Assembly (NCBI GenBank): GCA_028713675.1
Contig: JAQTNV010000010.1
Location: 12,369-76,368, forward strand
Direction of reading: 5' to 3'
DNA: 64,000 nt
Origin: a bacterium
Lineage (GTDB): Bacteria > Desulfobacterota > JAPLJL01
Made by a program: the position numbers and the translations under genes. Positions 1-37,980 of the stretch are shown piece by piece; the first letter of the stretch is position 1; the number at the start of each line of letters is the position of its first letter. The notes under the pieces were generated by a model that made no database searches, was not told where the DNA came from, and saw nothing but the letters and a program-made list of their open reading frames with translations.

Positions 1-51
1 CGGGGGAATCCAGTCTTTCCGCTCTGGATTCCCGCTTTCGCGGGAATGACA
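1..51. repeat. GAAA-loop hairpin repeat (GTCATTCC-YGC-GAAAGC-RGG-GAATCCAG; translates as WIPAFAGMT), extended form
   Basis: The sequence gggggaatccagtctttccgctctggattcccgctttcgcgggaatgac is nearly identical to 34921-34971. Confidence 0.7.
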
Positions 52-75: not shown

Positions 76-1344
76 CTATTTTCTTCCGGCTTTCTTTTTC
101 CGGACCGGTTTTCGGGAGGCGGCCTTTTTCGCGGCCTTCCCGGTTTTCTTGACCTTGTCCTTAACCTGTTTTCTGGCCTGGACCGGCTTCGGCTTGGCTT
201 CGTCCCGGCCGAGGACATAGACGATATTCGACTGGAGGCAGAAGCCGCTGGTCGCGTGCACCAGCCCCCGGCGGATATCCTTTTTAATCTGGTATTCCCC
301 CGCCTGCCCGGTGAGCTGGCGGGCCGCCTCGACCATCCGGAGCAGGCCGGCCACGAAAATGGGGTTCCCGCAGAGCGCCCCTCCCGAGGCGTTCACGGGA
401 TAAGCTCCGTCCAGGTTCGCGATTCCTTTCTCCACCAGCTTCCGCCCTTCCCCGGCCTCGGCCAGCCCCAGTCCCTCGCAAATCATCAGTTCGGAAAAGG
501 AGAACGGCTCGTAGACCTCGGCGAAATCGGTTTCCTTCCGCGGGTTCCTGATCCCGGCCTGGGCGTAAGCCATCCGGGCCGCCCGGGCCAGCGATTCCGG
601 CCGGGCCAGGTCCCGGTGCCCCAGGTAATAAAGGTCATGGTTGTAGCCGACCCCCTCGATCCAGACCGGATTGGGGGTGATTTTCCGGGCCAGATCGCCG
701 TTGGCCAGGATCAGGGCGCAGGCCGCTTCCGAACGCGGGGAAGCGTCGGCCAGTTTGATCGGGGAAGCCAGTACCGGCGATTTCAAAACCTCCGCTTCGC
801 TGATCGGGATCCGGACCTGGGTGTTGGGGTTTCTCACCCCGTTGGCCCGGTTTTTCACCACCACCTTGGCCGCCGGCCGCTCGTCCAGGTTATACCGGGA
901 AAGGTAACTGTTCGCCTGGAGGGCGAAGGCCGAGACCATCTCCACCCCCAGGGGGCGGAGCAGGAAGGGATCGGTCATCATCCAGGAATAAAACTGGGGA
1001 GGGGTGTCCACGCGTCCGTGAGCCACGATCAGCGCCGTCTTATGGTGGCCGGTGAGGAGCCGGAGGTAGGCGTAAAGGGCGGCATAGGCGCCGTCCTCCT
1101 CCACCTTGGATTCCTCCTTCATGAATCCCCCCATGGACTCGACCACGAAAACGTTGGAGATGCTGGCCCCGTCCATCGTGTCGCAGCTCGCGCTGATGAC
1201 CGTGTCGATGTCCCCGATGGAGAGCCCGCTTTTGTCCAGGGCCGCTTGCACGGTCCGGCCGATCATTTCGGTTTTGTGGATCCGTTCGTCCCGCTCCACG
1301 ATTGGGGATTGGGCCCAGCCGACAATCGCCGCTTTCCGTTCCAC
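76..1344 (-). CDS. Thiolase-like protein of the SCP-x / non-specific lipid-transfer type, with an unusual Lys/Ala/Pro-rich basic C-terminal tail
   Basis: The translation carries thiolase motifs (AAIVGWAQSPI near the N-terminus, NASGGALCGNPIFVAGL near the C-terminus). The likely start is a GTG at 1344, preceded by AGGAGG 6 nt upstream. The ORF track extends to 1530, but that stretch covers intergenic repeats. The C-terminal 40 aa read KPKPVQARKQVKDKVKKTGKAAKKAASRKPVRKKKAGRK. Confidence 0.75.
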   Translation of the reverse strand: MERKAAIVGWAQSPIVERDERIHKTEMIGRTVQAALDKSGLSIGDIDTVISASCDTMDGASISNVFVVESMGGFMKEESKVEEDGAYAALYAYLRLLTGHHKTALIVAHGRVDTPPQFYSWMMTDPFLLRPLGVEMVSAFALQANSYLSRYNLDERPAAKVVVKNRANGVRNPNTQVRIPISEAEVLKSPVLASPIKLADASPRSEAACALILANGDLARKITPNPVWIEGVGYNHDLYYLGHRDLARPESLARAARMAYAQAGIRNPRKETDFAEVYEPFSFSELMICEGLGLAEAGEGRKLVEKGIANLDGAYPVNASGGALCGNPIFVAGLLRMVEAARQLTGQAGEYQIKKDIRRGLVHATSGFCLQSNIVYVLGRDEAKPKPVQARKQVKDKVKKTGKAAKKAASRKPVRKKKAGRK

Positions 1345-1613
1345 CTGCTTCCTCCTTCTGATAAAGCCTTGATATAAATGTTTGGAGTTGGGTGATAGGT
1401 GTTGGGTGCTGGGTAATAAAACTAAAATGCCACCCGAACTTATACCCCGAACTCTAAAAATTTCCTTCTCAGTTCCCTGCTCCGGGCCCTTTGCCTTCGG
1501 CTCCGACTGGGCAGGACGCCTGGATTCCAACCACCCAGCTACCCAACCACCGCGCAGCCAGGCTGCGGCTATCGTTTTGCCCTATGCCCTCTGCCCTATG
1601 CTCTATACTCTTT

Positions 1614-2762
1614 TTAGTACGTGCTGATGATATCCCGGGCGATGATCATGCGCTGGATCTCGCTCGCTCCTTCGCCGATCTCGCCGAGCTTGGCGTCGCG
1701 ATAGAGCCGCTCCACCTTGTATTCCTTCATATAGCCGTAGCCGCCGTGGATCTGGACCGCGTCCGAGGCGATCCGGGTACAGGTCTCGGAGGCGTAAAGC
1801 TTGGCCACCGAGGCCAGGGTGCTGTCGGGCGTGCCCTGGTCAAGCTTCCAGGCCGCCTCGTGAATAACCAGCCGGGCACCGTCCGTGGCCACCTTCATCT
1901 CGGCGATCTTGAAGTGGATCTCCTGGAAACTGGCGAGGGTCTTGCCGAAAGCCTGCCGCTCGGTCGCGTATTTGATCGACTCCTCCAGGCAGGCCTCCGC
2001 TATCCCCAGCGAAAACACCGCCATCCCGATCCGGGCCGGGACCAGGCACTGCATGCACTGGATGAAACCGCCGCCCTCGCTGCCGACCAGGTTGGCGGCC
2101 GGGATCTCGCAGTCCTCGAAAATGAGCTCGGAGGTGGGGCTCCCGCGGACCCCCAGCTTGTCCAGGGGCTTGCCCACGGAAAAGCCCTTGGTCCCCTTCT
2201 CCACCACGAAGCAGGAGATGCCCGAATAGCCCTTGCTGGGATCGGTCTTGGCGTAGATAATCGCGATGTCCGCGATCGGCCCGTTGGTAATGAACATCTT
2301 GGTGCCGTTCAAAACATACTTGTCGCCCTTCCGGATCGCCTTGGTCTTGAGGGACTGGACGTCAGACCCGGCATGGGGCTCAGTCATCGCCATGCACCCG
2401 AACTTGGTTCCCTTGATCAGATCGGGGAGATATTTTTTCTTCTGGGCGTCGGTGCCGAAAATCAGGATCGGGATCCCGGCCAAGCCGACGCTCGCCCCCG
2501 AGGAAAGGTAGGTGGCCGCGCAGGCCTTGGAGAGCTCCTCGCCGGCGACGGAGGTGGTCACGCAGCCCAGGTTGGTCCCGCCGAACTCCTTGGGCATCCC
2601 CATCCCCATGTAGCCGTACTTGCCCAGGGCCTTGATGTTATCGGTGCAGAAGATCATCTCCCGGTCGAGCTTCTCGGCCTTGGGCGCGATCTCCTTTTCG
2701 CAGAAATCCCGAAAACTTCTTTGAATCTCTATCTGTTCCGGAGTGTATGTATAGTCAAACAT
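1614..2762 (-). CDS. Acyl-CoA dehydrogenase
   Basis: 382 aa. ACAD family hallmarks are present: [19 protein letters not shown], a C-terminal QIHGGYGY, and [17 protein letters not shown]. Confidence 0.9.
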
Positions 2763-2789: not shown

Positions 2790-3953
2790 CTAAGAGCCGA
2801 AGCTCATCAGGGTGCGGGCGATGATGGATTTCTGGATCTCGGAGGTTCCGCCGCCGATGGTCGCGATCCGGGAATCCCGGAAGCCCCGCTCCACCGGGTA
2901 CTCCTTGATGTAACCGTAGCCGCCGTGGATCTGGATCGCGAGGTAAGCGGTCTTAATCGCCGCTTCCGAAACGAAGTACTTGCCGATGGCGGCCTGCTGC
3001 ATCGCCTCGAGCTCCCGGCCCTGGTCGATCATCCAGGCCGTCCGGTAGACCAGGTTCTTGCCCACCTCGTAGAATATCTTCAGGTCCACCAGCATGTGCT
3101 GGATGGCCTGGAAATCCGAAATCGGGCGCTTGAACTGGACCCGGGTCTTGGCGTACTTGGTGCACTTGTCCAGGGCCCCTTCCATCCCGCCCACCGCCGG
3201 GGCCAGGAGGCAGGAGCGCTCCCAGGCCAGGATGGTCCGGGCCACGTTCACGAAGCCCATGTCCAGCTCATCCAGAAGGTTCTCCTCCGGGACCTCGCAG
3301 TCCTCAAAGAAAAGCTCCGAGGTGGGGGAGGTCCGCTGGCCGAGCTTGTTCATGTGCTTGCCGGCGGAAAAACCCTTGGAATCGCTTTCCACGATGAAGG
3401 TCGAGACCCCGAACGTCTTTTTCTCCGGGGAAGTGACCGCGATGACAATGAACTGGTGCCCGTAGGGCCCGTTGGTAATAAAGGTCTTGGAGCCGTTCAG
3501 GATGTACTTGTTGCCCTTCTTGACCGCCCGGGTCTGGACATGGGTGGCGTCGCTCCCGGCGTTGGGCTCGGTCATCCCCATCCCGCCGATCCATTCGCCG
3601 GAGCAGATCTTGGGGAGGAATTTTTTCCGCTGTTCCTCGGTCCCGCGGCGCCAGATCGGCACCCCGCAAAGGATGGTGTGGGCTCCCCAGGTCATGGTCG
3701 TCCCCCCGTCCGCCCCGCCGCGGCCCAGGGCCACGCCGGCGACGCAGGTGGTCAGGGCGCCCAGCCCCTGCCCGCCGTACTGGGTCGGGAAGGGCATCCC
3801 CAGGATCCCCATCTGGCCCAGCTTCTTCCAAAGCGCCTGGTCGAACTCCTGCTTCTCGTCCCGCTCCAGAGCGGTCGGGAGCATCTCCTTCTCGGCAAAA
3901 GACCGGAGCTGCTCGTAAATCATTTTTTGTTCATCGGTCAAGGTAAATTCCAT
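2790..3953 (-). CDS. Acyl-CoA dehydrogenase (second paralog, in tandem with the first)
   Basis: 387 aa. ACAD motifs are present: [23 protein letters not shown], and TIGGGTSEIQK. Confidence 0.9.
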   Translation of the reverse strand: MEFTLTDEQKMIYEQLRSFAEKEMLPTALERDEKQEFDQALWKKLGQMGILGMPFPTQYGGQGLGALTTCVAGVALGRGGADGGTTMTWGAHTILCGVPIWRRGTEEQRKKFLPKICSGEWIGGMGMTEPNAGSDATHVQTRAVKKGNKYILNGSKTFITNGPYGHQFIVIAVTSPEKKTFGVSTFIVESDSKGFSAGKHMNKLGQRTSPTSELFFEDCEVPEENLLDELDMGFVNVARTILAWERSCLLAPAVGGMEGALDKCTKYAKTRVQFKRPISDFQAIQHMLVDLKIFYEVGKNLVYRTAWMIDQGRELEAMQQAAIGKYFVSEAAIKTAYLAIQIHGGYGYIKEYPVERGFRDSRIATIGGGTSEIQKSIIARTLMSFGS

Positions 3954-4235
3954 TGGGTCCCTCCCGGGTAAAAGTTAAGCGATTTATTTATCTATATATA
4001 ATGGAGATCTTATATACCGCCGCCTCCGATACTGTCAAGGACAAAAACATAGTATTGGCTATTATCAGTCAAAATCATAATTTATCTGTCGAAGGGCTCA
4101 ATTCAAAACCAAAAAATGACAGGTATTAAATTAATCATCCATTTAAATATCTTTGGCTCTTGTCTTAACCTTTTCTCGCTTTTTAACTTTTCTCGCCATT
4201 TCCTATAATTGACCAAATTCCTCTCGGAATTCATA

Positions 4236-6659
4236 ATGAATCAGATGCCCAAAAAATTACACCGGCTCGCGTTTTTCCTGATTTTCCTCCTGTCCTGTTC
4301 CCGGGACGGGGTCTTGACCTTGACCACTCCCGTCCCCCTGAATGAATCCATCCCCGGGGATGAAATCCGTTTCGGAAAAATCATTTCGGATTCGGAACTG
4401 GTCCCCGGTCCCGGGGCCACCGGCTGGTTCGGTGATTTCAAGCTTTACAATTCCCGGGTCGGTTTCATCCTCCAGGGCAACCTGACCCCCCCCGACCGGC
4501 GCCTGCTTCCCGGAACCATTATCGACGCGGGCTGGGCCGAACCGGGGGCGCTTCCCTCCGGAGATCTTCTCTTCGGCCTTACCCCCTGGCTCGAGGATTC
4601 ACCGGCGCGCGTGGGAAAAATCGAATTCCAGGATGGGGCGGGTCAGGGCCGGGCCACGGTTACCGGAAGGCTGGAACCGCAAAATCTTGATTACCAGGCC
4701 ACTTATGCCCTTTACCCCGGCGATGACCCGCGGGGCCGGGGCCTTCTAATCAAAACCACCATCTCGAACCCCGGCTCTTCCCCCCAGACCGTCAATCCGG
4801 GAGACTGGATTTCGTTCGGGGGAAAACTCGGCCTGCAGGTTCTGGATTTTCCCGGCGGGCACAAACTTCTGGCCGCGATCGGGCCGCGAATATCCTATCT
4901 TTATGTACCTACCGGGCTGGACATCAGCTCCCTGGAAATGACCCCGGGCGGGGCCGGGATCCATTTCCCGGAAACAACCCTGGCCCCCGGGGAATCCTGG
5001 ACCGGCACCCGCTGGCTTCTGATCAGCCGCCATGGGCTTCTGGAAGCGAATCCCATCCTTCCCAACCTCCTCGGTTTCTCCCCGGGAACCCTGCGGGTCC
5101 TGATCCCGAACGTGCAGGCGCAGGAAGATCTTTCCGTGAAAATATTCAGCCCCCCGGATGTTCTGAATGGCATCTGGGCTCCCGACCAGGAGGGAAATCT
5201 TTCGGCCCAGGTTCCGGCCGGTTCCTACCGGGTTAAAATCGAAAGCCCGGGCCTGGAGGATTATTATTTCCCGTCTCCTGTTACCGTCTCCGCCGGCGCC
5301 GAAAAATCGATCACGGTCACGCTCCCGGAGCCTTCCCGGGCGCGGTTCCAGATCTGGGAGGAAAACAACGGCGGCTATGCCACCGGCCCTTCCCCCGCGA
5401 AATTATGTTTCCAGAACCTGCGCCGGCCGGAAATCGTCGTGCGCGCCGTCACCGCGACCGGTTCGGGCGAAACCCTTCTGCCGCCGGGGATTTACGAGGT
5501 TTCCGCGAGCCGGGGGACGGAATACTCCCTGAAGCGGTTCCGATTTGGGCTCCAGCCGGGGGAAACCTTTGCCTTTCACGCTGCCCTCAGGAAGGTTCTG
5601 AATAACGATGGCTACTACTCCTTCGACCCCCGCCAGCGCACCGGCCGCTCCGCCCAGGGCAATCTGGGCCGCGAGGACTGGCTGAAAGACAACCTGGCGG
5701 AGGGCCTTTCCCTCTTGACCCCGGTTGATATCAACGCCGTCACCCAGATCTCTTCCTCCGATTTCCTTCCGGGTTATTCCGCTTCGGCCTCTTCCCTGAC
5801 CGGCCTGGAGATCCTCCCGGAAACCGGGCCTCCGTTTCTGCTCTTCCCCGCCGTTTTCGACCGTCTCTCCGGCTGGGGCGGGGCTCCCCTGGCGGACGAT
5901 CCGGAAACCATCTGGGAGATTTACCCGGCTTACTCCCGGCCCCGTCTCCTGGGGGCCACTCCCGAGTCCCTGGCATACCTGGTTCCTTCCTCCGATCCCG
6001 TCACCGCGCCGGTCCGGTTGGAATTCCCTCTCGATTTCGTCGAGATTTCCGATGCCGCGCCTGACCTCAACCGCTGGTTCGCCCTGCTCAATTCAGGATA
6101 CCTGGTCACCGCCGTCGGCGGATCCGGAGCTGGCAGTGTCGAAGAAGGGATCGGATTCCCCCGGACATTGATCCCCCGGGAAACCGGCTCATCCGATCCG
6201 GAAACCGATCTGGTGAACGCGATCAGGACCCGGAAGGCCCTGGTCTCGGCCGGGCCGCGCCTCCGGATGCGGGCGGATTATTACGGCTTCGATTCCGCCG
6301 CCTTTATTTCCGACACCAGCGGCGATATCGATCTTGAGATCGAGCTGGAAAGCCCGGTCTGGACCCCGGTTTCCGAGCTGATCATCTTCGGCAACGGGCA
6401 GCCCCTGCAAACCATCCCCGTGGATTTTTCCGCCGCTGTCAGCTTGGGAGGCCATCGTTTCTCCCAGCATTACTACCTCAACCTGCCGCTCGCAAAGGAC
6501 ACCTGGTTTGTCGCCCTGGTCCGGGGACAGGATTCGCTCGCGCCCGTTTACCCCGGTCATCCTTTCGCTTTCACCAACCCGATTTGGGTGGACGCTGACG
6601 GGGTGGACCGGGACGGCGACGGGCGTCTTTTCGACGCCCTGAACTCTCCTCTCCCATAG
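4236..6659 (+). CDS. Large hypothetical lipoprotein (about 808 aa) containing carboxypeptidase-regulatory-like beta-sandwich segments
   Basis: Signal peptide with lipobox (MNQMPKKLHRLAFFLIFLLSCS). No recognisable catalytic motif. The ORF track starts at a TTG at 4209. An ATG at 4236 or 4245 is more plausible as the start. Confidence 0.6.
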   Translation: MNQMPKKLHRLAFFLIFLLSCSRDGVLTLTTPVPLNESIPGDEIRFGKIISDSELVPGPGATGWFGDFKLYNSRVGFILQGNLTPPDRRLLPGTIIDAGWAEPGALPSGDLLFGLTPWLEDSPARVGKIEFQDGAGQGRATVTGRLEPQNLDYQATYALYPGDDPRGRGLLIKTTISNPGSSPQTVNPGDWISFGGKLGLQVLDFPGGHKLLAAIGPRISYLYVPTGLDISSLEMTPGGAGIHFPETTLAPGESWTGTRWLLISRHGLLEANPILPNLLGFSPGTLRVLIPNVQAQEDLSVKIFSPPDVLNGIWAPDQEGNLSAQVPAGSYRVKIESPGLEDYYFPSPVTVSAGAEKSITVTLPEPSRARFQIWEENNGGYATGPSPAKLCFQNLRRPEIVVRAVTATGSGETLLPPGIYEVSASRGTEYSLKRFRFGLQPGETFAFHAALRKVLNNDGYYSFDPRQRTGRSAQGNLGREDWLKDNLAEGLSLLTPVDINAVTQISSSDFLPGYSASASSLTGLEILPETGPPFLLFPAVFDRLSGWGGAPLADDPETIWEIYPAYSRPRLLGATPESLAYLVPSSDPVTAPVRLEFPLDFVEISDAAPDLNRWFALLNSGYLVTAVGGSGAGSVEEGIGFPRTLIPRETGSSDPETDLVNAIRTRKALVSAGPRLRMRADYYGFDSAAFISDTSGDIDLEIELESPVWTPVSELIIFGNGQPLQTIPVDFSAAVSLGGHRFSQHYYLNLPLAKDTWFVALVRGQDSLAPVYPGHPFAFTNPIWVDADGVDRDGDGRLFDALNSPLP

Positions 6660-6865: not shown

Positions 6866-6969
6866 GGAGTAATTAATGCGTTTCTTGCCTCTCTCGCTCT
6901 CTCGCTCTCTCGCTCGTCTCGCCTTTCTATTTGCATCGGTACGATGGACTCTGATATTAGTTGATAATC

Positions 6970-8205
6970 ATGTCCTCATCCGATTACCCCGTTGTGATCG
7001 TCGGGGCCGGCCCGGCCGGCTCGGCCGCCGCCCTCACCCTGGCCCGGAAGGGCCTCCGTCCCCTGCTGGCGGAGCGCTTCACCTTCCCCCGCGAGAAGGT
7101 CTGCGGAGACGGGCTTACATTCCGCTCGCTTTCCATTCTGAAAGAGCTGAATCTTTATGACCGGATTTCCTCCTGTCCCTCCGCCCTTCCGGTTAAAGAA
7201 GCCCGGGCGGTCACGGCAGAGAAAACTGTCTTCGCCGGTCCGATCCCCACTCTCCCGGACGGGTCGGTCGGTTTTATCTCCATCCCCCGGCGCGAGCTCG
7301 ATCAGATTCTCGCCCGGGCCGCGTCCGAGGCCGGAGCGGAGCTTGCGGAAAATTTCTCAGTCTCGGCCGTTCGAAGAAACGGCGGGACCATGGAAGTGAC
7401 CGGAAATCATAAAGGCCGGGAGAAAACCATCAGAACCAACCTGGTCATCGGCGCGGACGGGGCCCAGTCTATCGTCTCCCGGCAGGCCGGGCTTTACCGC
7501 CTTCGGCCCCGTTTCTGCGAGGTGTCCATCAGAGCTTATTTCACCGATCTGGATGAACCGGTCAGATGGCTGGAGCTTTATTACGATAAAAGGGTCATCC
7601 CCGGCTTCGCCTGGCTCTTTCCCCTGGCGGGCGGCATCGCGAACATCGGGATCGGGATCCGGATGGACCATCTGAAAAACCGGTCCCTGAAAAACCTTTA
7701 CCGGGAATTCATCTCCGATTACCCGCCGCTGAAGAAAAGACTGAAAAAAGCAAAAATGCTCGATCATCCCCGGGGGACCCTGATCCCCGGCTACGGACAG
7801 TCGGGAAAAATATTTTCAGACGGCGTCCTGCTCGCGGGTGATGCCGCCTCCCTGTCCGACCCCCTGGTGGGCGAAGGAGTCGGCGAGGCCCTCTTAAGCG
7901 GGGTCGCGGCCGGGGAGACCGCGGCCCGGGCCGTTTCGGCCGGCGATTTTTCCGGGTCTTTCCTCAGGCAGTATCAAAAAGAAATCCGCCGGCGCCTGAA
8001 TCCAGACTTCCGGTTCGCCCCCCTTTTCCAGAACTGGCCCCAGATCCACAAGGCCGCGGCCGCCATGATGCTCCGCGCGGAAAGGGACCCGGATTTCGGC
8101 CGGATCATGATCGGCATGGCTTCCGGGGCCATTTCCAAACGCGAAATCGCCCGGTGGGATTTCCTGGCCCCGACGGTGATGGGATATTGGGGAAGAAAGA
8201 AATAG
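6970..8205 (+). CDS. FAD-dependent oxidoreductase of the geranylgeranyl reductase family
   Basis: N-terminal dinucleotide fold (YPVVIVGAGPAGSAAALTLARKGL), KVCGDGL, and a GDAASLSDPLVGEGVGEA motif typical of GGR / FixC-like flavoproteins. Confidence 0.75.
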   Translation: MSSSDYPVVIVGAGPAGSAAALTLARKGLRPLLAERFTFPREKVCGDGLTFRSLSILKELNLYDRISSCPSALPVKEARAVTAEKTVFAGPIPTLPDGSVGFISIPRRELDQILARAASEAGAELAENFSVSAVRRNGGTMEVTGNHKGREKTIRTNLVIGADGAQSIVSRQAGLYRLRPRFCEVSIRAYFTDLDEPVRWLELYYDKRVIPGFAWLFPLAGGIANIGIGIRMDHLKNRSLKNLYREFISDYPPLKKRLKKAKMLDHPRGTLIPGYGQSGKIFSDGVLLAGDAASLSDPLVGEGVGEALLSGVAAGETAARAVSAGDFSGSFLRQYQKEIRRRLNPDFRFAPLFQNWPQIHKAAAAMMLRAERDPDFGRIMIGMASGAISKREIARWDFLAPTVMGYWGRKK

Positions 8206-9918: not shown

Positions 9919-9983
9919 GTCATTCCTGCGAAAGCAGGAATCCAGGAAAAATATCTGGATCCCGCATCAAGTGCGGGATGACG
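9919..9983. repeat. GAAA-loop hairpin repeat plus an adjacent inverted partner (ctggatcccgcatcaagtgcgggatgacg)
   Basis: The sequence gtcattcctgcgaaagcaggaatccag is followed by a second hairpin that ends in gatgacg. Confidence 0.65.
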
Positions 9984-27559: not shown

Positions 27560-27587
27560 CTGGATTCCTGCTTCCGCAGGAATGACG
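27560..27587. repeat. GAAA-loop hairpin repeat family (ctggattcctgcttccgcaggaatgacg)
   Basis: Located in the nrdJ-gcvH intergenic region. Generates the spurious peptide FWIPASAGMT in shadow ORF 27363..27623. Confidence 0.65.
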
Positions 27588-34920: not shown

Positions 34921-34971
34921 GGGGGAATCCAGTATTTTTTCCGCCTGGATTCCTGCTTCCGCAGGAATGAC
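34921..34971. repeat. GAAA-loop hairpin repeat, extended form
   Basis: The sequence gggggaatccagtattttttccgcctggattcctgcttccgcaggaatgac flanks the AT-rich islet. Confidence 0.7.
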
Positions 34972-36489: not shown

Positions 36490-36645
36490 AGTTCAAAGTC
36501 CAAAGGTCAAAGGTCAAAGTTCGAAGGAAAGATATAAAACAGCATCAGCAAGCTGATGCGCTCCAAAAAAGAAAACCCTGAATTCCGGCTTCCTCCTGCG
36601 CCGAGGCTTCGGAGGACAAGTCCGCCGGAATGACGATATTTATTT

Positions 36646-36680
36646 TTTACTGCTTACTGCCTACTCCTTACTGTTTACTG
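36646..36680. repeat. Tandem heptamer array (TTACTGC / CTACTCC units)
   Basis: Sequence ttactgcttactgcctactccttactgtttactgg. Confidence 0.7.
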
Positions 36681-36716
36681 GGAGCGAAGCTCCCTGCTGC
36701 CTACTTCTTACTGACA

Positions 36717-36741
36717 GCGCAGCCTAAAGGCTGCGGCTACC
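36717..36741 (-). repeat. REP palindrome with compensatory stem changes
   Basis: The sequence gcgcagcctaaaggctgcggctacc has the same architecture and CTACC end as the other copies. The stem is GCAGCCT/AGGCTGC rather than CAGGCT/AGCCTG. Confidence 0.6.
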
Positions 36742-36763
36742 TTAGAATGACAAATAAATATAT

Positions 36764-36806
36764 TTCAATCGTCAATCGTAAATCGTCAATCGTCAATCGT
36801 CAATTT
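36764..36806. repeat. Tandem heptamer array (AATCGTC units); a second copy lies at 36891-36922
   Basis: The sequence caatcgtcaatcgtaaatcgtcaatcgtcaatcgtcaatt is repeated about 85 bp downstream. Confidence 0.7.
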
Positions 36807-36920
36807 GCGCCTTGCGCTCTGCTTTTCGCAAGGCTAAAGCCTTGCCCTACATTTGCCCTATGCCCTTTGCGATCACAAATCAGGTTTTCACTCGTCAATC
36901 GTAAATCGTCAATCGTCAAT

Positions 36921-37856
36921 TTATTTTATGACTCCTTTGAGGATGGGGGCGAGTGTCTTTTTCAGCCGAGCAGGGATGGCTTTCGGGTCGGTGACAATGG
37001 CGTCCTTCAAGGCCTGGCTGCAGACGCAATTCCTCGCTTCCGGCAAATGGGGGATCGCGCCCGCGATCATTTCCTTGGCCTTGCCGATGGTGGCCTTCAT
37101 TACCTTGATCACATCCTCGATCTCGACCTCGCCTTCCCGCTCGTTCCAGCAGTCGTAGTCGGTGACCATCGCCACCGTGGCGTAGCAGATCTCGGCCTCG
37201 CGGGCGAGGCGGGCTTCCGGGAGGTTGGTCATCCCGATCACCGAAACCCCCCACTGGCGGTAGATGTCGGACTCCGCCCGGGTGGAAAACTGCGGCCCCT
37301 CGATGCAGATGTAGGTCCCCTGCCGGTGCAGCCGGAAGCCCTTTTCCTCGCCGACCCGGGCCAGGATCCCGGCCATGACCGGGCAGACCGGGTGGGCCAG
37401 GGCCACGTGCGCGACGATCTCTCGGGAGAAAAAGGTGCGGGGCCGGGCGGCGGTCCGGTCGAAGAACTGGTCGGGCAGAACGATATCGCCGGGATGGATC
37501 TCCTCGCGCATGCTCCCCACCGCGCTGACCGAGAAGATGCGCTCGGTGCCGAGCAGCTTGAAGCCGAAGATGTTGGCGCGGAAATTGATATCCCCGGGCG
37601 GGATCCGGTGGCCGCGGCCGTGGCGGGCCAGGAAGGCCAGGCGCCGGCCGCCCATCCGGCCGATCACGAACGGGTCGGAGGGTTCCCCGAAGGGGGTCTT
37701 GACCCTGACCTCCCGGATGTCGGTAAGTCCGGGCATCTCGTAAAGCCCCACCCCCCCGATCACCCCGATGGTCCCGGCCTCAAAAATTTTATTGCTTTTT
37801 TTACCAACCGAAATGTGGGGTTTCTTTTTCTTGCGTTTCATTCGTTTCCCCTTCAT
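36921..37856 (-). CDS. mtnP: S-methyl-5'-thioadenosine phosphorylase (purine nucleoside phosphorylase family)
   Basis: TIGVIGGVGLYE near the N-terminus, plus PNP-family motifs. The basic N-terminal extension of the ORF (MKGKRMKRKKKK...) is probably not translated, so the start is uncertain. Confidence 0.8.
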   Translation of the reverse strand: MKGKRMKRKKKKPHISVGKKSNKIFEAGTIGVIGGVGLYEMPGLTDIREVRVKTPFGEPSDPFVIGRMGGRRLAFLARHGRGHRIPPGDINFRANIFGFKLLGTERIFSVSAVGSMREEIHPGDIVLPDQFFDRTAARPRTFFSREIVAHVALAHPVCPVMAGILARVGEEKGFRLHRQGTYICIEGPQFSTRAESDIYRQWGVSVIGMTNLPEARLAREAEICYATVAMVTDYDCWNEREGEVEIEDVIKVMKATIGKAKEMIAGAIPHLPEARNCVCSQALKDAIVTDPKAIPARLKKTLAPILKGVIK

Positions 37857-37909
37857 TTAATCGAGATTGCTTCGTCGCTTGCGCTTCTCGCAATGACAAT
37901 TCTTCCAGA

Positions 37910-37980
37910 CTGGATTCCCGCTTTCGCGGGAATGACGGAATTAGCATGGATACTCCCGCCTTGGGCGGTACGGGAATGAC
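37910..37980. repeat. GAAA-loop hairpin repeat (ctggattcccgctttcgcgggaatgacgg) followed by a second gggaatgac end
   Basis: Lies between mtnP and ndk. Generates the spurious peptide WIPAFAGMT at the C-terminus of shadow ORF 36630..37979. Confidence 0.65.

What the first reader, a model, noticed from the sequence alone, without database searches (positions are those of the whole stretch)
76..1344. Thiolase carrying a 40-aa histone-H1/AlgP-like Lys-Ala-Pro-rich C-terminal tail
The SCP-x-type thiolase ends with KPKPVQARKQVKDKVKKTGKAAKKAASRKPVRKKKAGRK. This is a strongly basic, low-complexity extension of the type that binds nucleic acids, polyphosphate or anionic granule surfaces. Metabolic thiolases normally lack such tails. 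It could target the enzyme to a polyanionic structure such as PHA granules, polyP or the nucleoid, or it could be a misassembled or fused fragment.
Basis: seen in the sequence. Interest (0 to 1): 0.5.

Follow-up and report, generated by a model that had tools for sequence, protein, structure and literature searches.

The report
Polylysine tail on a thiolase-like protein
A thiolase-fold protein from an uncultivated sediment bacterium really does end in a 40-residue lysine-rich, disordered tail; the tail is confined to one narrow lineage, and the protein lacks thiolase catalytic residues, so it is a modest curiosity whose likely role, sticking to DNA, RNA or polyphosphate, is untested.

Summary
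The gene (minus strand, 76-1344) encodes 422 aa: a complete SCP2-thiolase-fold domain, then a tail (aa 384-422) with 15 Lys, 4 Arg and 1 acidic residue.

The tail is not an artefact. The identical protein is NCBI MDD5223267.1. Its 90% cluster has 19 members from four sources, with at least 10 tail variants of 32-50 aa. Three clusters at 66-75% identity carry 115-138 aa tails (net +55 to +67). About 115 more distant homologues, and every other 50%-identity cluster among 1.84 billion representatives, end where the tail begins.

Among close relatives the domain is 96% identical and the tail 64%. Charge is conserved; sequence is not. AlphaFold gives the tail pLDDT 41-56.

"Thiolase" holds for the fold only. 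The nucleophilic Cys is absent (EEDG), HDCF is YEPF, and GHP is GNP. In relatives the gene sits in an operon: ACAD, ACAD, this gene, a second Cys-less thiolase-like gene, two DUF35 genes and two MaoC genes. That layout resembles Ltp2/Sal aldolase systems.

Most likely the tail is a non-specific polycationic tether to nucleic acid or polyphosphate. This is inferred, not shown. No PHA or polyP genes lie nearby.

The parts
76..1344 (-). Complete CDS of the tail-bearing thiolase-fold protein ('thl1'), 422 aa plus stop; GTG start
   Evidence: Identical to NCBI MDD5223267.1.
1351..1357 (-). Shine-Dalgarno-like AAGGAGG, 6 nt upstream of the GTG start
   Evidence: Read directly from the sequence.
199..1344 (-). 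SCP2-thiolase-fold domain, aa 1-382. Catalytic positions are degenerate: nucleophile loop E82-E83-D84-G85 (no Cys), Y278-E-P-F instead of HDCF, G326-N327-P instead of GHP.
   Evidence: Pfam Thiolase_C_1 1.5e-31. NCBIfam PRK06065, PRK08313 and PRK07937 hits are all below their cut-offs. PDB sequence and fold matches. AF2 places strand 77-81 and helix 85-98 around the elbow. Motif mapping.
79..207 (-). C-terminal extension beyond the point where homologues end (aa 380-422, RDEA + polybasic tail)
   Evidence: Alignment A1. Tail statistics.
79..195 (-). Polybasic, predicted-disordered tail proper (aa 384-422): K15 R4 A6 P3 V4, one Asp; about +18
   Evidence: pLDDT 41-56.
1614..2762 (-). Acyl-CoA dehydrogenase, second of a tandem pair, immediately upstream in the same orientation
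   Evidence: Pfam ACAD N/M/C domains. Same gene order in L001 and L007.
2790..3953 (-). Acyl-CoA dehydrogenase, first gene of the operon
   Evidence: Synteny.
24..50 (-). REP-like hairpin repeat in the thl1-thl2 intergenic region. The partner gene thl2 lies beyond the window start.
   Evidence: Five copies in the window against 0 expected. The orthologous intergenic regions of L007 and L008 are about 220-240 bp and are followed by thl2.

Best explanation
The tail is a genuine, lineage-specific, intrinsically disordered polycationic C-terminal extension. It sits on 'thl1', a thiolase-fold protein that has lost the thiolase catalytic residues. thl1 is encoded next to a second Cys-less thiolase-fold paralogue (thl2, with a conserved Tyr in the Y-x-A-F motif) and two DUF35 zinc-ribbon/OB proteins. 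In this lineage the four genes lie inside an operon with two acyl-CoA dehydrogenases and a split MaoC hydratase. That is an Ltp2/Sal-type 'dehydrogenase - hydratase - retro-aldolase' module for a branched or bulky acyl-CoA. thl1 is probably the structural, non-catalytic partner. The tail arose once in a narrow clade of uncultivated anaerobic sediment bacteria. It grows and shrinks by indels and short repeats, and it is constrained in charge, not in sequence. Shown: the tail's existence, distribution, evolutionary pattern and predicted disorder, the degenerate active site and the operon context. Inferred: with +13 to +67 net charge per chain and no conserved periodicity, the tail acts as a non-specific electrostatic tether to cellular polyanions. 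The most probable target is nucleic acid (nucleoid or RNA), or polyphosphate, as for the H1-like tails of AlgP, PhaF, Ku and HupB. Binding would localise or concentrate the complex.
For: Real and conserved as a feature:
- P0001 (98% id) has a near-identical 422 aa tail.
- P0002, P0003 and P0004 (75, 72, 66% id) have 115, 138 and 130 aa tails that are 49-50% K+R.
- The GTDB MAGs L007 and L008 have 50 and 34 aa polybasic tails (54 and 38 aa counted from the VLG motif).
- The 90% cluster has 19 members with at least 10 tail variants, all net +13 to +23.

Restricted distribution:
- All other listed homologues are about 380 aa.
- An exhaustive phmmer search of 1.84e9 representatives finds no other tailed cluster.

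Charge conserved, sequence not:
- The domain is 96.4% identical and the tail 64% across 36 pairs.
- At the DNA level the domain is nearly identical while the tail diverges.
- The long tails contain weak 15-nt repeats.
- Helical amphipathicity is not conserved (muH 1.74 vs 0.49).

Other points:
- Disorder: pLDDT 41-56 in the tail against over 90 for most of the domain.
- Gene-specific: no other K-rich tail in the 64 kb window or in relatives' contigs.
- Degenerate active site and operon. The reference motifs for Ltp2 (YDHF) and Sal (YDCY, Gly at the Cys position) come from PMC12329534.
- Precedent for the function of such tails: the AlgP CTD (+55) binds DNA and localises to polyP granules, and the PhaF CTD binds DNA (PMC9239181). 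Ku PAKKA repeats modulate DNA binding (PMC3553676).
Against: No direct evidence of any binding partner exists; the function rests on physical chemistry and analogy. The tail shows no detectable homology to AlgP, PhaF, H1 or Hc2. Its high sequence and length variability is also what a tolerated, functionless low-complexity expansion would show. A polybasic tail could equally bind anionic phospholipid, which would make sense for a hydrophobic acyl-CoA substrate. The claim that thl1 is non-catalytic rests on motif variability in an alignment, not on an assay. Only about 90 kb of the lineage's genomes was scanned, so a wider habit of K-rich tails in this organism is not excluded.
Confidence: 0.45

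Rival explanations
1. The tail is a tolerated, essentially functionless low-complexity expansion. It would be a Lys-codon-rich runaway repeat at the 3' end of the gene that selection has not removed.
For: Tail identity is 64% against 96% for the domain among close relatives. Length ranges from 32 to 138 aa. The long tails have weak tandem DNA repeats. The extreme C-terminus is replaced in some variants (P0125, P0127).
Against: Every full-length member across 66-98% domain identity keeps an open frame. K+R is 47-53% in most variants, with 38% in one variant shared by P0123, P0127 and P0130, and there is almost no Asp or Glu. No truncated or acidic variant was seen. Random 58% GC sequence would give about 12% K+R and a stop within about 20 codons. 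The feature persists in two sub-clades with independent length changes.
Confidence: 0.2
2. The tail is a polybasic membrane tether. It would bind anionic phospholipids so that the complex sits at the inner face of the membrane, where hydrophobic acyl-CoA substrates are generated.
For: The operon type (paired ACADs, MaoC pair, DUF35, Ltp2/Sal-like proteins) is used for bulky lipid-like substrates such as steroid side chains (PMC12329534). A conserved 816 aa lipoprotein gene is divergently transcribed next to the operon. Polybasic stretches are a known peripheral membrane-binding device (general knowledge).
Against: There are no hydrophobic or aromatic anchor residues. No amphipathic periodicity is conserved between variants. 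Tails of 115-138 aa and +55 to +67 are far longer than known polybasic membrane motifs and look more like nucleic-acid-binding IDRs. The substrate is unknown.
Confidence: 0.2
3. The tail targets the protein specifically to PHA or polyphosphate granules.
For: AlgP, with a +55 H1-like CTD, localises to polyP granules, and PhaF is PHA-granule associated (PMC9239181).
Against: No pha, phasin, ppk or CHAD genes were found in the 64 kb window or in the relatives' contigs. In PhaF the H1-like CTD binds DNA while the N-terminal domain binds PHA (PMC9239181). The tail has no KPAA repeats. The protein is not a PHA-pathway acetoacetyl-CoA thiolase, since it lacks the catalytic Cys and His.
Confidence: 0.08
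4. The tail is an assembly or frameshift artefact, or a fused fragment.
For: The gene lies at the window edge. Low-complexity A-rich DNA is error-prone.
Against: The thiolase domain is complete before the tail. An identical or near-identical tail appears in 19 cluster members from four data sources, and in other clusters at 66-75% identity. The orthologous downstream intergenic region and thl2 follow in L007 and L008.
Confidence: 0.02
5. The tail is an intra-complex electrostatic glue that binds acidic surfaces of the partner subunits.
For: thl1 is expected to assemble with thl2 and DUF35 proteins, by operon structure and by the existence of a natural thiolase-like + 2xDUF35 fusion.
Against: The partners are near neutral (net -7 to +4, pI 5.1-8.8) and are no more acidic than those in tail-less operons. 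A charge of +55 to +67 far exceeds anything the partners could neutralise.
Confidence: 0.05

Closest known systems
AlgP / PhaF C-terminal KPAA-repeat domains (Pseudomonas), 'histone H1-like'
   Same: Both are C-terminal, predicted-disordered, Lys/Ala/Pro-containing polycations with net charge of tens. The domain is attached to a different functional module, and it is variable in sequence. It binds DNA (AlgP also localises to polyP granules) and acts as a tether (PMC9239181).
   Different: There are no KPAA tandem repeats. This tail is richer in Lys and Arg (about 50%) and poorer in Ala and Pro. No sequence homology is detectable. It is attached to a thiolase-fold metabolic protein rather than to a phasin or regulator.
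Lys-rich PAKKA-type tails of actinobacterial Ku, HupB and TopA, and chlamydial Hc1/Hc2
   Same: These are low-complexity basic tails that evolve by repeat gain and loss and modulate nucleic-acid binding (PMC3553676).
   Different: Those proteins already act on DNA, whereas this host protein is a CoA-ester-pathway component. The Pfam HC2 match is not significant (E 4-8).
Ltp2-ChsH2(DUF35) and Sal-Shy(DUF35) steroid side-chain aldolases (PDB 6OK1, 9MYR)
   Same: Both have an SCP2-thiolase fold without the nucleophilic Cys, and a Tyr where thiolases have the HDCF His. Both have a DUF35 partner, a MaoC hydratase and paired ACADs in the same gene cluster (PMC12329534).
   Different: Here there are two thiolase-like paralogues and two free-standing DUF35 proteins. 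The motifs are YEPF and YNAF rather than YDHF or YDCY. Sequence identity is only about 20%. Neither aldolase has a basic tail.
Ltp3/Ltp4 paired thiolase-like proteins of actinobacterial sterol catabolism; ST0096 (PDB 4YZO) and related archaeal 'thiolase domain-containing proteins'
   Same: These are paired thiolase-like genes. The best NCBIfam and structure matches for this protein are PRK06065, PRK08313, PRK07937 and 4yzo. Wilbrink et al. 2012, cited in PMC10398937, report that ltp3 and ltp4 are needed for C24-branched sterol side-chain removal.
   Different: All NCBIfam scores are below the curated cut-offs. I did not verify which PRK model corresponds to which Ltp. No tail is present in those families.

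Membership tests
Catalytically competent SCP2/SCP-x-type thiolase | Thiolase alpha-beta-alpha-beta-alpha fold of the SCP2-thiolase subfamily | tested here: met
   Pfam Thiolase_C_1 1.5e-31. PDB phmmer hits to SCP2 thiolases and archaeal thiolases. Foldseek TM 0.73-0.83 to 6hsp, 6et9, 3zbg and 4bi9.
Catalytically competent SCP2/SCP-x-type thiolase | Nucleophilic Cys at the strand-helix elbow (NNCSTG / AACASG) | tested here: not met
   The elbow between strand 77-81 and helix 85-98 reads V-E-E-D-G-A. KEESKVEEDGAYA is conserved across the family. The paralogue thl2 aligns Gly to the Cys of 6hsj, 7yvy and 6esq.
Catalytically competent SCP2/SCP-x-type thiolase | HDCF motif (His and the acid/base Cys) | tested here: not met
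   The motif reads V-Y278-E-P-F, aligned to 'EVHDAF' of 7yvy and, via thl2, to 'ELHDCF' of zebrafish SCP2 thiolase.
Catalytically competent SCP2/SCP-x-type thiolase | Second catalytic His in the G-H-P loop | tested here: not met
   The loop reads G326-N327-P, aligned to 'GHP' of 4yzo and 7yvy.
Ltp2 / Sal DUF35-dependent retro-aldolases | Thiolase fold lacking the nucleophilic Cys, with a catalytic Tyr at the first position of the Y-D-(H/C)-(F/Y) motif | tested here: inconclusive
   Tyr278 is present in the tailed clade, but this position is Y, H, S or T across the thl1 family. In thl2 the Tyr is conserved in 8 of 8 loci. The reference motifs are from PMC12329534.
Ltp2 / Sal DUF35-dependent retro-aldolases | His (Ltp2) or Cys (Sal) at the third motif position, acting as oxyanion hole or acid | tested here: not met
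   The position is Pro280 in thl1 and Ala in thl2.
Ltp2 / Sal DUF35-dependent retro-aldolases | Encoded with a DUF35 partner, a MaoC hydratase and paired acyl-CoA dehydrogenases | tested here: met
   The L001 operon is ACAD-ACAD-thl1-thl2-DUF35-DUF35-MaoC_N-MaoC_C. L005-L008 agree. In the window itself only the two ACADs and thl1 are visible.
Ltp2 / Sal DUF35-dependent retro-aldolases | Retro-aldol cleavage of a 3-hydroxyacyl-CoA | not testable with these tools
   Needs an enzyme assay.
AlgP/PhaF-type histone-H1-like C-terminal domain | Tandem KPAA (or KPVA, KTAAA) repeats | tested here: not met
   No variant of the tail contains KPAA. TRF finds only weak 12-15 nt repeats in the long tails.
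AlgP/PhaF-type histone-H1-like C-terminal domain | Disordered, strongly cationic Lys/Ala/Pro-rich composition | tested here: met
   K 38%, R 10%, A 15%, P 8%. Net +13 to +67 across variants. pLDDT 41-56.
AlgP/PhaF-type histone-H1-like C-terminal domain | Detectable sequence homology | tested here: not met
   The tail-only search gave no hit at E<=1e-3. Pfam gives only HC2 at E 4.3 and 7.6, against a cut-off of 40 bits.
AlgP/PhaF-type histone-H1-like C-terminal domain | Binds DNA and/or polyphosphate | not testable with these tools
   Needs EMSA, anisotropy or localisation experiments.

The most novel reading that the evidence does not exclude
A catabolic enzyme complex (thl1/thl2/DUF35, Ltp2/Sal-like) is spatially organised by a histone-H1-like disordered polycation. 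The tail would tether the complex to the nucleoid or RNA, or drive coacervation with nucleic acid or polyphosphate. The result would be a membraneless 'metabolon' for a hydrophobic acyl-CoA pathway in an anaerobic bacterium. The pseudo-enzyme subunit thl1 would have been recruited as the carrier of the localisation signal.
Probability: 0.15. Interest if true: 0.6.

Novelty: new variant of a known kind. Interest (0 to 1): 0.35.

Why it matters
If the tail is functional, it would be an example of an H1/AlgP-type polycationic disordered region grafted onto a metabolic protein rather than a DNA-handling one. I found no report of this for thiolase-fold proteins in the searchable literature. That would extend charge-driven subcellular organisation (nucleoid tethering, polyP or RNA coacervates) to a beta-oxidation-like pathway. 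The natural series of tail lengths, 32 to 138 aa on an otherwise nearly constant domain, is a ready-made experiment for testing how charge and length tune localisation.

Separately, the annotation 'thiolase / acetyl-CoA C-acetyltransferase' given by public sources is misleading. Neither paralogue of this widespread thl1-thl2-DUF35-DUF35 module (Asgard archaea, Dehalococcoidia, Syntrophaceae and others) has a thiolase nucleophile. If the tail is merely tolerated, the finding is a minor curiosity.

Tried and rejected
1. Tail-only homology search (128 aa of the P0004 tail): 3670 candidates, none at E<=1e-3. Composition filters make this uninformative.
2. Pfam scan on three tails at E<=10: only HC2 at E 4-8.
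3. Apparent long matches in Asgard loci L024, L026 and L046 suggested tails there. Their ORFs are 383-409 aa with no basic tail, so this was a tblastn artefact.
4. Long representatives P0211, P0237, P0256 and P0176: one is a thiolase-like + 2xDUF35 fusion, two are Arg-rich, apparently frameshifted high-GC ends, and one has an internal insertion. None has a K-rich tail.
5. Charge-complementarity hypothesis: the partner proteins are near neutral.
6. Search for PHA or polyP genes in the window: none found among about 43 ORFs scanned.
7. Conserved amphipathic helix: not conserved among variants.
8. Rfam on the whole window: no hits.
9. Terminator scan: nothing convincing downstream of the gene on the minus strand.
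10. An N-terminal-half PDB search to pin down the Cys position gave only weak FadA5 and KAS III alignments. The mapping was instead made through thl2 and the AF2 secondary structure.
It was repeated with alignment A3.
12. Taxonomy: NCBI labels are only 'bacterium' and 'Proteobacteria bacterium', from Lac Pavin sediment MAGs.
Full report
**1. What is in the sequence**

The finding lies on the minus strand. A GTG at 1344-1342, six bases downstream of AAGGAGG (1357-1351), opens a 422-codon frame that stops at 78-76.

Residues 1-382 match thiolase-fold profiles to their last positions: Pfam Thiolase_C_1 at 1.5e-31, and NCBIfam PRK06065, PRK08313 and PRK07937 aligned to profile ends at aa 378-382. 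After the motif NIVYVLG (ending at aa 379) the protein continues RDEA-KPKPVQARKQVKDKVKKTGKAAKKAASRKPVRKKKAGRK.

The 39-residue basic part (nt 79-195) has 15 Lys, 4 Arg, 6 Ala, 3 Pro and a single Asp. Against the composition of 24 proteins of the same window (K 5.2%, K+R 11.7%), the binomial probability of that many Lys is 4.5e-10. A six-frame scan found no other comparably K-rich stretch in any credible ORF of the 64 kb window.

**2. Not an artefact**

- The domain is complete before the tail. Tail-less homologues terminate 0-3 residues after VLG, so the tail is an addition and not a frameshifted replacement.
- The exact protein is in NCBI as MDD5223267.1, on a 76.8 kb contig.
- Its 90%-identity cluster has 19 members from NCBI, JGI, ENA and Logan.
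- Those members show at least ten different tails of 32-50 aa, all net +13 to +23.
- Two GTDB species representatives from Lac Pavin sediment (L007, L008; 95% identical domain) carry polybasic tails of 50 and 34 aa (54 and 38 aa counted from the VLG motif).
- Three further clusters at 75, 72 and 66% identity (P0002-P0004) carry tails of 115, 138 and 130 aa that are 49-50% K+R, net +55 to +67.

**3. Distribution**

Of the 120 best homologues, only these four clusters exceed about 400 aa. The next relatives, at 60% identity or less, are all about 380 aa. They come from Dehalococcoidia, Asgard archaea, Syntrophaceae, Blastocatellia and unclassified bacteria.

An exhaustive phmmer search with P0004 against 1.84 billion 50%-identity representatives found no second tailed cluster. 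The next hit is 50% identical and 383 aa. The few long hits are a DUF35 fusion or apparent frameshift junk. Apparent long tblastn matches in three Asgard loci proved to be ordinary 383-409 aa proteins. The tail is therefore an innovation of one narrow bacterial clade.

**4. How the tail evolves**

- Among nine members of the window's cluster, the domain is 96.4% identical (minimum 94.2%). The tail is 64% identical (minimum 45.5%).
- In the DNA alignment of the window, L007 and L008, the last 80 bases of the domain are almost invariant. The tail region diverges by substitutions, indels and replacement of the 3' end.
- Variants differ by units such as one extra 'VK' (P0124 vs P0131).
- The long tails contain weak 15-nt (5-aa) tandem repeats.
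- Every variant nevertheless keeps an open frame. K+R is 47-53% in most variants, with 38% in one variant shared by P0123, P0127 and P0130, and there is almost no acidic residue.
- Helical amphipathicity is not conserved: the maximum hydrophobic moment is 1.74 in the window variant and 0.49 in L008.
- AlphaFold2, run with a 27-sequence alignment, gives mean pLDDT 84.5 for the whole chain, mostly above 90 in the domain, and 41-56 for residues 383-422.

This is the signature of a disordered region selected for charge and length class, not for sequence.

**5. What the host protein is**

The fold is that of SCP2-type thiolases. Foldseek gives TM 0.73-0.83 to archaeal thiolases, zebrafish and trypanosomatid SCP2 thiolases, BbsB, PhlC, Sal and Ltp2. 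The best match is the Sulfolobus 'thiolase-like protein' ST0096 (sequence level).

The catalytic apparatus is missing:

- The nucleophilic elbow between strand 77-81 and helix 85-98 reads V-E-E-D-G-A, with no Cys. KEESKVEEDGAYA is conserved across the whole family.
- The HDCF motif is V-Y-E-P-F.
- The GHP histidine is Asn.

In relatives with longer contigs, the gene order is ACAD, ACAD, thl1 (tailed), thl2, DUF35, DUF35, MaoC-N, MaoC-C (L001; L005-L008; NCBIfam).

thl2 aligns full-length to zebrafish SCP2 thiolase, 7YVY and 6ESQ. It has Gly at the nucleophile position, Y-N-A-F for HDCF and A-N-S for GHP. Its HTGGTVGGS and E-[LV]-Y-x-A-F motifs are conserved in all eight loci examined, including an Asgard archaeon.

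According to PMC12329534:

- Ltp2 uses the Tyr of a YDHF motif as the catalytic base.
- Sal uses the Tyr and Cys of YDCY, and has Gly in place of the thiolase nucleophile.
- Both bind a DUF35 domain.

The module here is therefore aldolase-like rather than thiolytic, and no 3-hydroxyacyl-CoA dehydrogenase gene is present in L001.

In thl1 the Tyr position varies (Y, H, S or T) across the family, whereas in thl2 it is invariant. I infer that thl2 is the catalytic subunit and thl1 a structural partner. This is inference only.

The four-gene core thl1-thl2-DUF35-DUF35 also occurs without the ACAD and MaoC genes in tail-less relatives. A natural thiolase-like + 2xDUF35 fusion exists (P0211), which supports physical association.

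In the window only the two ACADs (1614-2762, 2790-3953) and thl1 are visible. By comparison with L007 and L008, thl2 starts about 220-240 bp downstream of thl1's stop, just outside the window.

**6. What the tail probably does**

Nothing here tests function directly. What can be said:

- (i) The tail is gene-specific within about 90 kb of sampled sequence from the lineage.
- (ii) The partner subunits are near neutral (net -7 to +4), so intra-complex charge pairing is unlikely.
- (iii) The window encodes Tol-Pal, NiFe hydrogenase with Hyp maturation, a 2-oxoacid:ferredoxin oxidoreductase, succinyl-CoA synthetase, Sdh/Frd, RNR, GatB and multihaem cytochromes. This points to a diderm anaerobe. 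No PHA or polyphosphate genes are present.
- (iv) Bacterial tails of this composition that have been studied bind DNA and/or polyP. The AlgP CTD (+55) binds DNA and localises to polyP granules. The homologous PhaF CTD binds DNA and tethers PHA granules to the nucleoid, while PhaF's other domain binds PHA (PMC9239181). Ku PAKKA repeats modulate DNA binding (PMC3553676).

A chain carrying +18 to +67 in a disordered segment will bind cellular polyanions almost unavoidably. I therefore favour a non-specific electrostatic tether to nucleic acid or polyP that localises or concentrates the complex (confidence 0.45 for the whole statement).

The main rivals are a tolerated functionless expansion (0.2) and a polybasic membrane tether (0.2). 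Specific PHA or polyP granule targeting (0.08), intra-complex glue (0.05) and artefact (0.02) are less likely.

**7. Comparison with the known, and novelty**

The tail resembles histone H1, AlgP, PhaF and Hc2 in composition only. It has no KPAA repeats and no significant homology. A literature search for thiolase plus lysine-rich C-terminal tails returned nothing relevant.

The host protein works like, but does not pass the motif test for, Ltp2/Sal aldolases. It fails three of four defining features of a catalytic SCP2 thiolase. The combination of an H1-like polycation on a pseudo-thiolase subunit of a DUF35 complex appears undescribed. Each component is of a known kind, so I rate it a new variant of a known kind, with interest 0.35.

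Noticed in passing
window 24-50, 9919-9945, 27560-27586, 34945-34971, 37910-37936: A 27-nt REP-like hairpin repeat (GTCATTCCCGCGAAAGCGGGAATCCAG) occurs five times against 0 expected. The variants carry compensatory stem changes (CCCGCG/CGCGGG to CCTGCG/CGCAGG). The copy at 24-50 lies in the thl1-thl2 intergenic region and is shared, with an insertion, by L008. L007 has a different repeat there. The copy at 37910-37936 falls inside the 3' end of the unannotated ORF 36630-37979.
   Followed up: partly
window 4209-6659 (+); L001 403-2868 (-): An 816 aa predicted lipoprotein (signal ending LLSC) with no Pfam match is divergently transcribed from the ACAD-thl1 operon. It is conserved in the same position in the long-tail lineage (47% identity over 810 aa). 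It may be functionally linked to the pathway, for example in substrate acquisition.
   Followed up: partly
L001 6951-8105; L005-L008, L046, L061, L063 (thl2 genes): The partner paralogue thl2 also lacks all canonical thiolase residues (Cys to Gly, HDCF to Y-x-A-F, GHP to A-N-S). These substitutions are conserved from bacteria to Asgard archaea. The widespread four-gene module thl1-thl2-DUF35-DUF35 is annotated 'acetyl-CoA C-acetyltransferase' in public sources but cannot be a canonical thiolase.
   Followed up: partly
protein P0211 (731 aa): A natural fusion of a thiolase-like domain with two DUF35 (zinc-ribbon/OB) domains. This is consistent with a 1:2 thiolase-like:DUF35 assembly.
   Followed up: no
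window 1345-1613: The intergenic gap between the second ACAD and thl1 is about 270 bp here. In the long-tail lineage (L001, 5335 to 5370) it is about 35 bp. Its content was not analysed.
   Followed up: no
window thl1 aa 61-75 (nt 1120-1164): The AF2 model has a very low-confidence loop (pLDDT below 50) just before the degenerate nucleophile elbow. It may be a partner-dependent or substrate-covering segment.
   Followed up: no
window 6961-8205 (+): A geranylgeranyl-reductase-like flavoprotein (FAD_binding_3 + GGR_cat) lies two genes from the operon. It may hint at an isoprenoid-type substrate.
   Followed up: no
L001 10459-12084; L008 4767-7127: A subtilisin-like S8 peptidase gene follows the DUF35/MaoC genes in both tailed sub-lineages. 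In L008 it is 786 aa with a C-terminal hydrophobic anchor and a basic end.
   Followed up: no
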